IMG/VR virus record: IMGVR_UViG_3300045988_120820
Coordinates: 1-64,000 of that record
Origin: a virus
Strand: one strand, 5' to 3'
DNA length: 64,000 bases
Under the pieces are notes generated by a model. The model was not told the origin of the DNA, did no database searches, and saw nothing but the letters and a program-made list of their open reading frames with translations. Shown one piece after another: positions 62,046 through 63,470 of this stretch (positions are counted from its first letter, which is position 1; each line of letters starts with the position of its first letter). The position numbers and the translations under genes were made by a program.

Positions 62046-62105
62046 CATAGGTAATTTTTATATCAGTTTTGTTAATACACTAATATAAGAAAAGGAGGTG
62101 ATAAT
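62046..62105 (+). promoter_or_regulatory. phage-specific promoter-like element, copy m (5' part, interrupted by the TnpB element)
   Basis: CATAGGTAATTTT 62046-62058, N11, TGTTAATAC 62070-62078, AATATAAG 62082-62089, AGGAGGTGATAAT to 62105. Confidence 0.5.
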
Positions 62106-63408
62106 ATTGTAAGATGAAATCATTAAAAATAAAATTATATCCTACAAAACAACAAGAAATATTATTCTACAAACATATTAATTGTCAAAGATATATTTAT
62201 AATTGGGCTTTAGGTATTAACAATGAATTATATAAAGAAAATAAAATGAAATATTCTAGTAATGAATTGTGTAAAATGCTTACTCAATATAAAAAAGATA
62301 ATACTTGGTTAAATGAAGTATCTAGTGCAACGTTAAAAGAATCAATTAGAAATCTAGATAAAGCTTATACTAATTTTTATAAAGGTAGAGCCAATTTACC
62401 TAAATTTAAGAGTAAAAGAAAGTCTAAATTAAGCTTTTATAGTAGATATGATAAAATTAAATTTTACCAAAATAATACTGTTAATTTAGAAAAAATAGGT
62501 AGGGTAAAATATAAATCTAGCTATAATATAGATTTGACTCAAATAATTAAATTTAGTAATCCTCATGTATCATATAATGGTAGATGTTGGATATTAACTG
62601 TAGGTATAAGTGTAGATAGTGAAATGCATAAATTAACAAATGAAGTAATAGGAATAGATTTAGGCATAAAAGAATTAGCAATATGTAGTAATGGAATGAT
62701 ATTTAAAAATATAAACAAAGATTTAACTATTAAGAAATTAGAAAAACGACTTAAAAGATTGCAAAGAAAAGTAAGTAAAAAATATGAATTAAATAAAGAA
62801 GGGAGGAGTTATCAAAAATCTAATAATATAATTAAACTTGAAAATAAAATAAATAGATTATATCGAAAATTACATAATATAAGATTAAATTATATACATC
62901 AAACAACTTCTACAATAGTGAAAACCAAACCTTGTATGATAGTTATGGAAGATTTATGTATTAAAAATATGATGAAAAATAAATCAATTGCTAAACAAGT
63001 TCAAAAGATAGGGTTATATGAATTTATTAGACAGATGAAGTATAAATGCGAATGGAATGGTATCAGATTTGAACAAGTAGATAGATATTTCCCATCAAGC
63101 AAAATATGTAGTAATTGTTTTAATATAAAGAAAGATTTAAAATTATCTGATAGAACATATTATTGTGAAAAATGTGGTTTAACTATTGATAGAGATTTTA
63201 ATGCAAGTATTAATCTTATGAATTATGGAAAGTCATTATTATAAGAATTTCTATAACATGTAGTGTTTCGTTAAACACGAATTTACGCCTTTGGACTATT
63301 AATAACTATAGTAGGTATTTTTCTGAAATAGAATAGAATGAAAAAGGAATGAAGATTTATTTAAGTTTAATTTATAGATTTTTATAGATTTTCGATAACG
63401 GTGATAAT
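62106..63408 (+). mobile_element. TnpB-only IS200/IS605-family (IS1341-like) insertion; boundaries inferred
   Basis: Interrupts a repeat element whose two halves (62046-62105 and 63409-63470) rebuild the intact copy at 49264-49380; GGTGATAAT at 62097-62105 and 63400-63408. Confidence 0.55.
62114..63244 (+). CDS. tnpB: TnpB (OrfB) RNA-guided nuclease
   Basis: KLYPTKQQ N-terminus, RuvC-like IGIDLG, VMEDL, zinc finger CSNC..CEKCG, DRDFNASINL. Confidence 0.85.
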   Translation: MKSLKIKLYPTKQQEILFYKHINCQRYIYNWALGINNELYKENKMKYSSNELCKMLTQYKKDNTWLNEVSSATLKESIRNLDKAYTNFYKGRANLPKFKSKRKSKLSFYSRYDKIKFYQNNTVNLEKIGRVKYKSSYNIDLTQIIKFSNPHVSYNGRCWILTVGISVDSEMHKLTNEVIGIDLGIKELAICSNGMIFKNINKDLTIKKLEKRLKRLQRKVSKKYELNKEGRSYQKSNNIIKLENKINRLYRKLHNIRLNYIHQTTSTIVKTKPCMIVMEDLCIKNMMKNKSIAKQVQKIGLYEFIRQMKYKCEWNGIRFEQVDRYFPSSKICSNCFNIKKDLKLSDRTYYCEKCGLTIDRDFNASINLMNYGKSLL

Positions 63409-63470
63409 AAAAATGTAAAATACATTCTAAATAAAATATTAATAAAAATAATAAATTTTAAGGAGATGAT
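63400..63470 (+). promoter_or_regulatory. orphan 3' half of a phage-specific element with ATG-TAA minimal ORF
   Basis: GGTGATAATAAAAATGTAAAATA..AAATATTAATAAAAATAA, close to 49311-49370; ATG-TAA 63413-63418. Confidence 0.5.

What the first reader, a model, noticed from the sequence alone, without database searches (positions are those of the whole stretch)
62046..63470. TnpB-only element inserted precisely into one copy of the phage promoter/leader repeat; its predicted guide would match the repeat family
The element copy at 62046 runs normally up to AGGAGGTGATAAT (62105). It is then replaced by ATTGTAAG-ATG, the start of a 376-aa TnpB gene (62114-63244). The missing 3' half of the repeat (GGTGATAATAAAAATGTAAAATA..AAATATTAATAAAAATAA..AAGGAG) reappears at 63400-63470 and aligns with the intact copy at 49311-49380. 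GGTGATAAT occurs at both junctions (62097-62105 and 63400-63408). No tnpA is present. In IS200/IS605 elements the omega-RNA is encoded at the 3' end of tnpB and the right end, its guide is the flanking DNA just beyond the right end, and the TAM equals the target motif left of the insertion. That would make the guide AAAAATGTAAAATAC... with a TAM near GATAAT. This combination resembles the conserved leader of the other copies (25621-42, 31621-37, 34061-80, 49311-25). The 63245-63400 region holds a GTGTTT-CGTT-AAACAC hairpin (63264-63279) and a tandem TTTATAGATT x2 (63371-63390). One caveat is that only 8 nt separate the inferred left junction from the ATG, so the left end is atypically short or my boundary is off.
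Basis: partly seen in the sequence, partly recalled or inferred. Interest (0 to 1): 0.7.

Follow-up and report, generated by a model that had tools for sequence, protein, structure and literature searches.

The report
Phage-borne TnpB guide-RNA homing element
A 1.3-kb selfish element, made of an RNA-guided nuclease gene (tnpB) and its guide RNA with no transposase, sits exactly inside the ribosome-binding site of one phage promoter/leader copy; its guide matches the uninterrupted version of that same site in sister phages, not the other repeat copies in this genome, so it is an ordinary though well-documented member of a known family.

Summary
Removing window 62099-63401 (1303 bp) rebuilds an uninterrupted promoter/leader. 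That uninterrupted site exists verbatim in four related phage contigs from the same metagenome. The interpretation needs correcting in three places.

- **Family.** The element is not IS200/IS605. It is a tnpA-less IS607-family TnpB with a RAGATH-18-derived guide RNA (reRNA). Rfam hit at 63288-63349 is above the gathering score. The best solved structure is ISFba1 TnpB (8IAZ), and the protein is 53% identical to ISWco TnpB.
- **Right end and guide.** The right end stops at AACGG (63401), not 63408. The guide is therefore TGATAATAAAAATGTAAAAT (63402-63421).
- **TAM.** The natural target-adjacent motif is GGAGG (62094-62098), the Shine-Dalgarno core, not GATAAT.

With these corrections the guide has no usable second target in the window. 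The other repeat copies share at most a 7-nt seed or have three mismatches among the first five positions. The only perfect TAM-plus-target sites are the empty alleles of sibling phages.

The element is 99.9% identical in three phages whose flanks differ by 4-17%. tnpB is under purifying selection (dN/dS about 0.2). The most likely function is RNA-guided homing into, or exclusion of, co-infecting relatives.

This is a new member of a known kind. One loose end remains: 7-13 bp junction repeats here and in Staphylococcus phage relatives, which IS607 is said not to make.

The parts
62041..62098 (+). Left half of the interrupted site: a promoter-like repeat copy followed by the leader's Shine-Dalgarno sequence AAAAGGAGG. 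GGAGG at 62094-62098 is the natural TAM position and GG at 62097-62098 is the insertion dinucleotide.
   Evidence: Member of the 11-12-copy repeat family. It is contiguous with 63402 onward in four empty-site contigs, each with GGAGG directly 5' of the 20-nt target.
62099..62113 (+). 15-nt left end of the element (TGATAATATTGTAAG). It supplies the spacer between the captured host SD and the tnpB ATG. It has no TTTATAA-type subterminal repeats.
   Evidence: Homology to the 93%-identical copy at a different site (L010: GG|TGATATTATTGTAAGATG) starts at about 62091-62099. Relatives with longer left ends carry TTTATAA-N5-TTTATAA motifs, and this element does not.
62114..63244 (+). tnpB, 376 aa: an RNA-guided RuvC nuclease of the IS607/RAGATH-18 clade. 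Catalytic residues are D182, E279 and D361. The zinc ribbon motifs are CSNC at 332 and CEKC at 351.
   Evidence: Pfam. PHROG 506 at E 5e-113. 8IAZ (ISFba1 TnpB) at E 5e-70 with the catalytic D/E/D aligned. 53% identity to ISWco TnpB. dN/dS 0.18-0.21 against L010, L011 and L025.
63245..63401 (+). reRNA (omega-RNA) scaffold, which is also the right end of the element. It has a 5' hairpin at 63263-63278 and a RAGATH-18 core at 63288-63349. A pseudoknot pairs the loop CGTTA (63269-63273) with TAACG (63396-63400). The terminus is AACGG.
   Evidence: Rfam RF03064: 50.1 bits against a gathering score of 44.9. A 12-sequence alignment and RNAalifold give 29 pairs, 15 with compensatory changes, including the long-range CGTTR/YAACG pairing. 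The same terminus ...TTTATAAnTTTTTATAAnTTT...AACGG occurs in the published ISWco, ISCco and ISFba2 reRNAs. Homology with L010 ends exactly at 63401.
63402..63421 (+). Predicted 20-nt guide, TGATAATAAAAATGTAAAAT. It is the first 20 nt of flanking leader DNA.
   Evidence: In characterised relatives the guide follows AACGG directly and 20 nt is optimal (PMC11061315). All relatives diverge from each other immediately after AACGG. The guide matches all four empty-site contigs perfectly, next to GGAGG.
63402..63476 (+). Right half of the interrupted leader: a start-stop mini-ORF (ATG 63413-63415, TAA 63416-63418), an AT-rich spacer, then the SD AAGGAG (63460-63465) of the next gene.
   Evidence: Read directly from the sequence. 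It aligns to the intact leaders at 49311 and to the empty-site contigs.
63477..63716 (+). Downstream 79-aa ORF served by this promoter/leader. It now lies behind tnpB and the reRNA in the same transcription unit.
   Evidence: ORF list. No Pfam or PHROG family. No terminator-like site in 61400-64000.

Best explanation
Window 62099-63401 is a tnpA-less derivative of an IS607-family insertion sequence. It carries a 15-nt left end, tnpB, and a RAGATH-18-type guide-RNA scaffold that ends in AACGG.

**Position.** It sits immediately after the GG of the Shine-Dalgarno sequence (AAAAGGAGG) of one phage promoter/leader copy. tnpB is therefore transcribed from the phage promoter and translated from the captured SD. 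The scaffold is transcribed into the flanking leader, which supplies the 20-nt guide TGATAATAAAAATGTAAAAT.

**Target.** The TnpB-reRNA complex should recognise GGAGG plus that 20-mer. This combination exists only in genomes lacking the element, that is, in sibling phages with the uninterrupted leader. In the carrier genome the same 20-mer is preceded by AACGG and is immune.

**Consequence.** Cleavage of a co-infecting empty-site phage, expected about 16-22 nt into the target, would be repaired from the carrier genome and copy the element in. This is homing, a gene drive. If unrepaired, it would eliminate the competitor.

**What is shown and what is inferred.**
- Shown here: the anatomy, family membership, exact empty sites, presence/absence polymorphism, near-identity of the element across diverged flanks, and purifying selection.
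- Established for relatives by others: RNA-guided cleavage, G-rich TAMs, and TnpB-driven homing of an IS607 element.
- Inferred: that this TnpB is active, accepts GGAGG, and homes between phages.

How the 1303-bp unit reached new sites without a transposase or left-end binding repeats is not explained.
For: **Family**
- Rfam RAGATH-18 above the gathering score, and the only Rfam hit in 64 kb.
- 8IAZ at E 5e-70 with RuvC D/E/D conserved.
- 53% identity to ISWco TnpB, whose published scaffold also ends in AACGG.
- The relative CB457P1 has a MerR+Resolvase TnpA directly upstream of its tnpB.

**reRNA.** 15 of 29 consensus pairs show compensatory changes, including the pseudoknot to the 3' end.

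**Boundaries**
- A 93%-identical copy at another site matches 62091-63401.
- Empty sites are exact in four contigs.

**Targeting**
- All four empty sites have GGAGG plus a perfect 20-nt match.
- There is no other site in the window with fewer than 3 mismatches.

**Spread**
- The element has 1-2 SNPs per 1303 bp among the window, L008 and L009.
- The adjacent flank is 94-96% identical (window against L008 and L009), and 83% between L008 and L009.
- L009 also has a different upstream gene.

**Selection.** dN/dS is 0.18-0.21.

**Site type**
- A canonical insertion of a relative occurs at AAGGAGG| between SD and ATG (PG-2021_64 against IME-SA2).
- Further verified purine-rich ...GG| sites are.

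**Literature**
- TAM AGGAG/GAGGG, 20-nt guide, sensitivity to mismatches at positions 1-13, and cuts at 16/22 (PMC11061315).
- IS607 TnpB homing has been demonstrated (PMC10690162).
Against: - No activity data exist for this protein.
- The natural TAM GGAGG is not identical to the GAGGG determined for the nearest characterised relatives.
- The TAM-contacting residues of ISFba1 (K80, N121, N122) are not conserved in the window protein by pairwise alignment. TAM specificity is therefore unknown.
- The flanks show mosaicism but no clean co-conversion gradient around the site.
- No TnpA is present in the window, and the left end lacks the TTTATAA-type repeats seen in relatives. The presence of the same unit at a second site (L010) is thus unexplained by either homing or canonical transposition.
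- I could not find an empty site for L010.
Confidence: 0.72

Rival explanations
1. This is an IS200/IS605-type TnpB whose guide (AAAAATGTAAAATAC...) and TAM (near GATAAT) match the conserved leader of the other promoter/leader copies. The nuclease could then target or spread through the repeat family within this genome.
For: The leaders of several copies share SD-spacer-ATGTAA. The copy at 49311 is visibly homologous to the right flank at 55 of 84 columns. Copies at 58800 and 49311 share a 7-nt TAM-proximal seed with the guide next to GGAGG/AGGAG.
Against: - The right end is at 63401, so the guide register differs by 7 nt.
- The family is IS607/RAGATH-18 with G-rich TAMs.
- No repeat copy has fewer than 3 mismatches, and those mismatches lie in the seed. 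Single mismatches at positions 1-13 abolish or strongly impair cleavage in ISFba1.
- The guide core is not enriched in the window.
- Only one tnpB/right-end copy exists in 64 kb.
- A guide matching its own genome next to a TAM would be suicidal.
Confidence: 0.04
2. Inert passenger. The element is a stranded IS607 remnant that lost its transposase and left end. It is merely carried along by phage recombination, with no current nuclease function.
For: No tnpA in the window. The left end lacks subterminal repeats. 30% of TnpAs in such loci are reported to be pseudogenes. Phage genomes here are strongly mosaic, so shared segments can spread by ordinary recombination.
Against: - The ORF is intact with all catalytic and zinc residues, and dN/dS is about 0.2 over dS up to 1.2.
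- The reRNA scaffold is conserved with compensatory changes and is 94% identical to L010's.
- The element is far more conserved than its immediate flanks.
- The guide and TAM fit the empty alleles exactly.
Confidence: 0.15
3. Competition weapon rather than homing element. The phage keeps TnpB because cutting the leader of tnpB-less relatives excludes them from mixed infections. It would be analogous to intron- or HEG-mediated interference, with little or no copying of the element.
For: The targets are exactly the sibling phages found in the same sample. The cut would fall in a promoter-proximal leader. Phage homing endonucleases are known to act this way (review PMC13565253). This phage carries seven HNH-endonuclease-like paralogues, which suggests intense inter-phage conflict.
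Against: This cannot be separated from homing with sequence data. The near-identical element in phages with different flanks suggests that it is in fact copied between genomes. The two outcomes are not mutually exclusive.
Confidence: 0.3
4. Domesticated RNA-guided regulator (TldR-like). TnpB-reRNA binds promoter/leader DNA to repress or time expression of repeat-driven genes.
For: Phage-encoded TnpB-derived repressors exist (one search list). The element sits in a promoter/leader.
Against: The RuvC triad and zinc ribbon are intact and the protein is full length, unlike TldRs. The guide has no TAM-adjacent match elsewhere in the genome.
Confidence: 0.02

Closest known systems
ISWco / ISCco / ISFba2 TnpB-reRNA systems (IS607 family, RAGATH-18 clade with 5'-GAGGG TAM; Ren et al. 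2024, PMC11061315)
   Same: - The protein is 53% identical to ISWco TnpB.
- The reRNA lies wholly downstream of the stop codon.
- The RAGATH-18 core, the 3' motif TTTATAAnTTTTTATAAnTTT and the terminal AACGG directly followed by the guide are shared.
- The TAM is G-rich and ends in GG.
   Different: - The element is phage-borne and lacks tnpA.
- The natural TAM here is GGAGG, not GAGGG.
- The residues at the ISFba1 TAM-contact positions differ from those of ISWco.
- The scaffold is about 157 nt, against 155-170 nt.
- Activity is untested.
ISFba1 TnpB-reRNA-DNA complex (PDB 8IAZ)
   Same: It is the best solved-structure match (E 5e-70). The RuvC D/E/D is conserved. The pseudoknot between the 5'-flank hairpin loop and the scaffold's 3' end has a covarying counterpart here.
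   Different: ISFba1's scaffold ends in ...GGCAG and its TAM is AGGAG. K80, N121 and N122 are not conserved in the window protein.
CboIStron / IS607 TnpB homing (Zedaveinyte et al., PMC10690162)
   Same: This is an IS607-family TnpB whose guide targets the vacant site. The GG target dinucleotide coincides with the end of the TAM. DSB-driven reinstallation of the element has been demonstrated experimentally for that system.
   Different: The window element has no group I intron and no TnpA. The presumed recipient is a co-infecting phage genome rather than a sister chromosome.
ISDra2-type IS200/IS605 TnpB
   Same: The nuclease fold is the same. The logic is the same: the guide is the DNA beyond the right end, and the TAM is the motif left of the insertion.
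   Different: IS200/IS605 uses a Y1 transposase and hairpin ends, its omega-RNA overlaps the tnpB 3' end, and its TAM is AT-rich (TTGAT). None of these applies here.
Free-standing phage homing endonuclease genes (T4 Seg/Mob type)
   Same: Both show presence/absence polymorphism at a fixed intergenic site among related lytic phages. In both, the element is more conserved than its flanks, and spread or exclusion during co-infection is expected.
   Different: Recognition here is by a 20-nt RNA guide plus TAM rather than by the protein. Self-immunity comes from separating the TAM from the target.

Membership tests
IS607-family TnpB with RAGATH-18-derived reRNA | TnpB protein of about 390 aa with an intact RuvC D-E-D triad and a zinc ribbon, closest to IS607 TnpBs | tested here: met
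   376 aa with three Pfam TnpB domains. 8IAZ at E 5e-70. D182, E279 and D361 align to the catalytic residues. 53% identity to ISWco TnpB.
IS607-family TnpB with RAGATH-18-derived reRNA | RAGATH-18 RNA motif immediately downstream of tnpB and not overlapping it | tested here: met
   RF03064 at 63288-63349, 50.1 bits against a gathering score of 44.9, starting 44 nt after the stop codon.
IS607-family TnpB with RAGATH-18-derived reRNA | Conserved 5' and 3' flanking motifs with a pseudoknot to the scaffold 3' end; the guide follows the scaffold terminus | tested here: met
   12-sequence alignment: 15 of 29 pairs are compensatory. CGTTR pairs with YAACG. All sequences diverge after AACGG. The published scaffolds have the same terminus.
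IS607-family TnpB with RAGATH-18-derived reRNA | G-rich TAM (AGGAG or GAGGG) directly 5' of the target | tested here: inconclusive
   The natural 5-mer is GGAGG in four empty sites. Verified relatives have GGAGG, AGAGG, AAAGG (twice) and AAGGG. All are G-rich and end in GG, but none is identical to the assayed GAGGG. Specificity was not measured.
IS607-family TnpB with RAGATH-18-derived reRNA | reRNA-guided dsDNA cleavage | not testable with these tools
   This needs a biochemical or interference assay.
Complete IS607 insertion sequence | Serine-recombinase TnpA (MerR-like HTH plus resolvase domain) | tested here: not met
   No homologue in 64 kb (tblastn E>=2). It is present in the relatives CB457P1 and VL10, and truncated to the HTH in phiSA12.
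Complete IS607 insertion sequence | Element terminates in GG and is inserted at a GG dinucleotide | tested here: met
   ...AGGAGG|TGAT... on the left and ...AACGG|TGAT... on the right. The rule is stated in PMC6188088.
Complete IS607 insertion sequence | Subterminal short repeats (TnpA binding sites) at both ends | tested here: not met
   The right end has TTTATAGATTTTTATAGATT. The left end is 15 nt with no such motif. Relatives have it 4-16 nt inside their left junction.
Complete IS607 insertion sequence | No target-site duplication | tested here: inconclusive
   A 9-bp GGTGATAAT lies at both junctions, but 7 of the 9 bp may be the element's own left end, since L010 has TGATATT there. Relatives show verified junction repeats of 7, 11 and 13 bp, and one clean GG-only case.
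   Relatives carry a serine recombinase, not Y1. The RNA starts after the stop codon and matches RAGATH-18. There is no left-end hairpin in the 15 nt. The flank is G-rich.
TldR (nuclease-dead TnpB-derived repressors) | Inactivated or truncated RuvC domain | tested here: not met
   The protein is full length with D182, E279, D361 and both CxxC motifs.
Homing genetic element (behavioural class) | Presence/absence at one site among relatives, element more conserved than its flanks, and a nuclease specific for the empty allele | tested here: met
   Three filled and four empty genomes occur in one metagenome. The element is 99.85-99.92% identical against 83-96% for the flanks. The guide and TAM are perfect only on empty alleles. 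Cleavage and biased inheritance were not tested.

The most novel reading that the evidence does not exclude
The short direct repeats at the junctions are 9 bp here. In Staphylococcus phage relatives with verified empty sites they are 7, 11 and 13 bp, and one of those relatives is a complete tnpA+tnpB IS607. Left junctions are ragged, while right junctions are always exact at AACGG. Together these would mark a non-canonical insertion route for IS607/TnpB elements in lytic phages. In that route the right end is placed precisely next to a Shine-Dalgarno-like TAM, and the left side is joined imprecisely, keeping 5-11 nt of the target. Such a route could be independent of a cis-encoded transposase. 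It would explain how a tnpA-less unit lacking left-end repeats appears at two different SD sites (window and L010).
Probability: 0.15. Interest if true: 0.7.

Novelty: new member of a known kind. Interest (0 to 1): 0.4.

Why it matters
TnpB nucleases are the ancestors of Cas12. Their natural role, guide-RNA-directed homing into vacant sites, has been shown in E. coli test systems. Natural populations that hold filled and empty alleles side by side are rarely documented.

Here one metagenome holds three phage genomes with the element and four without it, at the same nucleotide. The guide and TAM fit only the empty alleles. That makes the system directly testable as an RNA-guided gene drive or exclusion weapon among lytic phages.

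It also illustrates that this clade's TAM is essentially the Shine-Dalgarno core. The element lands between a gene's SD and its start codon, takes over the SD for tnpB, and leaves a partial SD (CGG) for the displaced gene. None of the papers I read mentions this, although a target search for it was run in only three of them.

For genome-editing purposes it adds a compact (376 aa) AT-rich-host TnpB with a probable GGAGG TAM.

Tried and rejected
- **AGGAG TAM register.** I first placed the TAM as AGGAG (62093-62097) with the guide starting at G63401, by analogy with ISFba1. I rejected this after reading the published scaffolds. The AACGG-ending clade has the guide directly after AACGG and a GAGGG-type TAM. 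The last G is unpaired after the pseudoknot, as in ISFba1.\n- **L010 empty site.** I searched twice and found none.\n- **Co-conversion gradient.** I looked for one in the flanks of filled against empty genomes and found only mosaicism.\n- **Second copies.** I looked for a second tnpB, right end or RAGATH-18 in the window and found none.\n- **Close GenBank relative.** I looked for a close relative of the phage to use as an annotated empty site. None exists: NrdD is at most 45% identical, with Thomasclavelia and gut phages nearest.\n- **Sigma-70 promoter and terminator scans.** They gave nothing above shuffles and no terminator.\n- **GGTGATAAT as a simple target-site duplication.** This cannot be decided, because L010's left end carries TGATATT at the same place.\n- **Literature.** Searches for lytic-phage TnpB homing found only a review that lists it as a conceptual category.\n- **Structure prediction.** I did not run it, because the sequence match to 8IAZ was already decisive.
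Full report
**1. What is in the sequence**

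The window is a very AT-rich phage sequence (25.8% G+C). nrdD (59290-61548) and nrdG (61526-62026) are followed by one copy of a promoter-like repeat. Its consensus is CATAGGTAATTTTT-N11-TGTTAATAC-NN-TAATATAAG, and it occurs 11-12 times, always on the + strand.

In this copy the repeat runs into AAAAGGAGGTGATAAT. It is then followed by ATTGTAAG-ATG and a 376-aa ORF (62114-63244). The ORF carries the three Pfam domains of TnpB. The rest of the leader resumes at about 63400. GGTGATAAT is present at 62097-62105 and 63400-63408.

**2. Proof of insertion and exact boundaries**

I searched the predicted uninterrupted site, GGAGGTGATAATAAAAATGTAAAATA, in IMG/VR. It occurs exactly in four contigs of metagenome 3300045988 (L018-L021).
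- L019 has the window's nrdD/nrdG upstream (97% identity) and the same downstream ORF (95%).
- Deleting 62099-63401 from the window yields 151 nt that differ at only 3 (L020) or 5 (L019) positions from these contigs.

The insert is therefore 1303 bp. Its register is ambiguous within the 9-bp repeat, but two independent lines fix the right end at 63401.
- Twelve related tnpB loci from Staphylococcus, Clostridium and Enterocloster phages and from metagenomes stay alignable for about 155-190 nt beyond the stop codon. All end at ...TTTATAnnTTTTTATAAnTTTT....AACGG, then diverge completely.
- A 93%-identical copy at a different genomic site (L010) matches the window over 62091-63401 and not one base further.

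L010's left junction reads ...AAGGAAGG|TGATATTATTGTAAGATG. So the 15 nt TGATAATATTGTAAG (62099-62113) are the element's own left end.

**3. Family**
- The only Rfam hit in the whole window is RAGATH-18 (RF03064) at 63288-63349, at 50.1 bits against a gathering score of 44.9.
- Ren et al. (PMC11061315) showed that RAGATH-18 RNAs are the core of the guide RNA (reRNA) of IS607-family TnpBs. [quoted passage not shown]
- The window protein's best solved-structure match is their ISFba1 TnpB (8IAZ, E 5e-70).
- It is 53% identical to ISWco TnpB.
- The published ISWco, ISCco and ISFba2 scaffolds end in ...TTTATAAnTTTTTATAAnTT...AACGG, like the window's.
- One relative (Enterocloster phage CB457P1) has a MerR-HTH+Resolvase TnpA directly upstream of tnpB. 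Another (phiSA12) keeps only the HTH stump.
- The window has no TnpA homologue.

This is a tnpA-less IS607-family element, not IS200/IS605.

**4. The guide RNA**

RNAalifold on the 12-sequence alignment gives 29 pairs, 15 of them with compensatory double changes.
The stem sequence differs among relatives while pairing is kept.
- Its loop CGTTA (63269-63273) pairs with TAACG (63396-63400) at the very 3' end of the scaffold, with covariation. This corresponds to pseudoknot PK2 of the ISFba1 structure.
The same motif occurs inverted in the left end of the complete element in CB457P1. It probably doubles as a transposase-binding repeat.
- L009 carries three units instead of two.

**5. Guide and TAM**

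In the characterised AACGG clade the 20-nt guide follows AACGG directly and the TAM is 5'-GAGGG. In the ISFba1 clade the TAM is AGGAG.

Here the guide is 63402-63421, TGATAATAAAAATGTAAAAT. In all four empty-site contigs it is matched perfectly and preceded by GGAGG. That GGAGG is the Shine-Dalgarno core of the leader.

Verified filled/empty pairs of relatives give the following.

| Filled / empty pair | TAM 5-mer |
|---|---|
| PG-2021_64 / IME-SA2 | GGAGG |
| phiSA12 / 812 | AGAGG |
| Twillingate / 80A | AAAGG |
| VL10 / MRSA21 | AAAGG |
| Romulus / PBSA08 | AAGGG |

The natural motif is therefore RRRGG. GATAAT is part of the target, not the TAM.

TAM specificity of this particular protein is unknown. 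K83 of ISFba1 is conserved, but K80, N121 and N122 are not.

**6. Does the guide match the repeat family?**

It does not.
- With any GG-ending 5-mer allowed as TAM, the only perfect match in 64 kb is the guide-encoding DNA itself. It is flanked by AACGG and hence immune.
- The next best site is 28780 (GTAGG, mismatches at positions 11, 15 and 18).
- The leader at 49309 has mismatches at positions 1, 3 and 5, caused by a 3-nt length difference.
- The leader at 58800 has GGAGG but only a 7-nt seed.
- The left junction itself has GGAGG and an 8-nt seed.
- The 16-nt guide core is not enriched over shuffles, at 16 matches against 16.9 expected.
- For ISFba1, single mismatches at positions 1-13 abolish or strongly impair cleavage.

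The partial seeds simply reflect the common SD-spacer consensus, the anti-SD complement AAGGAGGTGAT.

**7. Likely function**

tnpB is intact (D182, E279, D361, two CxxC motifs). It is under purifying selection, with dN/dS 0.18-0.21 at dS 0.25-1.2.

The element differs by only 1-2 bases in 1303 among the window, L008 and L009. The adjacent downstream DNA is 94-96% identical (window against either) and 83% identical (L008 against L009). L009 also has an extra DNA-methyltransferase gene between nrdG and the promoter.

Filled and empty alleles coexist in one sample. The best explanation is the known TnpB role, cutting the vacant site so that repair copies the element in. This has been shown for IS605 and for an IS607 IStron. 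Here it would act between co-infecting phages. Competitor exclusion is a non-exclusive variant.

No terminator separates tnpB, the reRNA and the next ORF. Expression should therefore follow the phage promoter class.

**8. What remains unexplained**

IS607 is reported to make no target duplication and to need subterminal repeats at both ends. Two things do not fit.
- The window unit has only 15 nt on the left, yet occurs at two sites (window and L010).
- Several relatives with verified empty sites carry direct repeats that start at the GG: 7 bp (Twillingate), 11 bp (VL10, a complete tnpA+tnpB element) and 13 bp (phiSA12). Their left junctions lie at variable distance from the left-end repeats. 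PG-2021_64 is a clean GG-only insertion, and Romulus has a small replacement plus a tRNA-Ser cargo.

The repeats often preserve the stop codon of the upstream gene, so selection in compact phage genomes may contribute. A mechanism is still needed. I flag this as the most novel reading, at low probability.

**9. Verdict**

This is a new member of a known kind: an IS607/RAGATH-18 TnpB in a lytic-type phage of an anaerobic Firmicute. No close GenBank relative exists. It comes with a natural filled/empty population and an SD-embedded target. In the held literature I found only a review that lists transposon homing between co-infecting phages as a category.

Noticed in passing
window 7027-7857, 8534-9331, 12592-13389, 35839-36633, 38923-39717, 43115-43912, 51968-52765: Seven paralogous copies (about 65-80% nt identity) of a roughly 780-nt gene. 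The copy at 43121-43900 encodes 259 aa. It has no Pfam hit but matches PHROG 953/374/2081 'HNH endonuclease' (E 3e-54). The phage appears saturated with homing-endonuclease-like genes.
   Followed up: partly
window 25637-25642, ~31632-31637, 34075-34080, 49320-49325, 63413-63418: Five promoter/leader copies carry a strong SD followed by ATG and an immediate stop (ATG-TAA or ATG-TAG), about 50 nt upstream of the real gene's own SD. This could be a start-stop or 5' mRNA-stabiliser (STAB-SD-like) device. The TnpB element is inserted in the SD of one of them.
   Followed up: no
L003 vs L005, L006 vs L022, L045 vs L046 (Staphylococcus phages phiSA12/812, Twillingate/80A, VL10/CIFT_MFB_MRSA21): Related IS607/TnpB elements are flanked by direct repeats of 13, 7 and 11 bp (GGTGTATATTTAA, GGATGAA, GGATTGAAGCA) that are single-copy in the empty sites. 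IS607 is described as making no target duplication. PG-2021_64/IME-SA2 (L047/L049) is a clean GG-only case.
   Followed up: partly
L021 (reverse strand), about 47 nt downstream of the TnpB target start; corresponds to window ~63448-63458: In this empty-site contig the same leader is interrupted by a different insertion of roughly 430-480 bp (GGGTATGAAACTATAACTGTGG...) before homology to window 63458 resumes. The leader seems to be a hotspot for insertions.
   Followed up: no
L019 2803-3483; also L009 and L020 upstream context: Some sibling phages have an N6/N4 DNA methyltransferase gene (Pfam N6_N4_Mtase, E 4e-37) between nrdG and the promoter repeat. It is absent from the window and L008. L009 combines this context with the TnpB insertion.
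   Followed up: partly
L010 4295-4900: The second insertion site of the same element lies in the SD of an HNH endonuclease gene (Pfam HNH, E 6e-8). An RNA-guided homing element is thus sitting directly in front of a protein homing endonuclease gene.
   Followed up: no
L007 1321-1408 (Staphylococcus phage Romulus): The segment that is absent from the related phage PBSA08 carries a tRNA-Ser gene upstream of tnpB. It replaces 8 nt of the empty site rather than inserting cleanly. This suggests cargo capture or a recombinational left junction.
   Followed up: no
L009 ~4260-4298 vs window 63371-63390: The TTTATAGATT unit of the reRNA 3' hairpin/right end is present three times in L009 and twice in the window and L008. 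This is the only length difference in an otherwise 99.9%-identical element.
   Followed up: no
window 28775-28799: This is the best off-target of the predicted guide: GTAGG followed by TGATAATAAATATGAAAGAT, a 10-nt perfect seed with mismatches at positions 11, 15 and 18. It is probably another SD/start region and is not expected to be cut, but it is the site to check in an assay.
   Followed up: no
window 1-92, 399-490, 1130-1221, 11865-11956 and 3604-3661, 5304-5361, 21683-21752, 25087-25156, 38845-38914: A second, distinct repeat family has canonical TTGACA-N17-TATAAT promoters preceded by AAAATAATTAATAAAA. These are presumably host-RNA-polymerase (early) promoters, in contrast to the CATAGGTAAT-type repeat that holds the TnpB element.
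   Followed up: no
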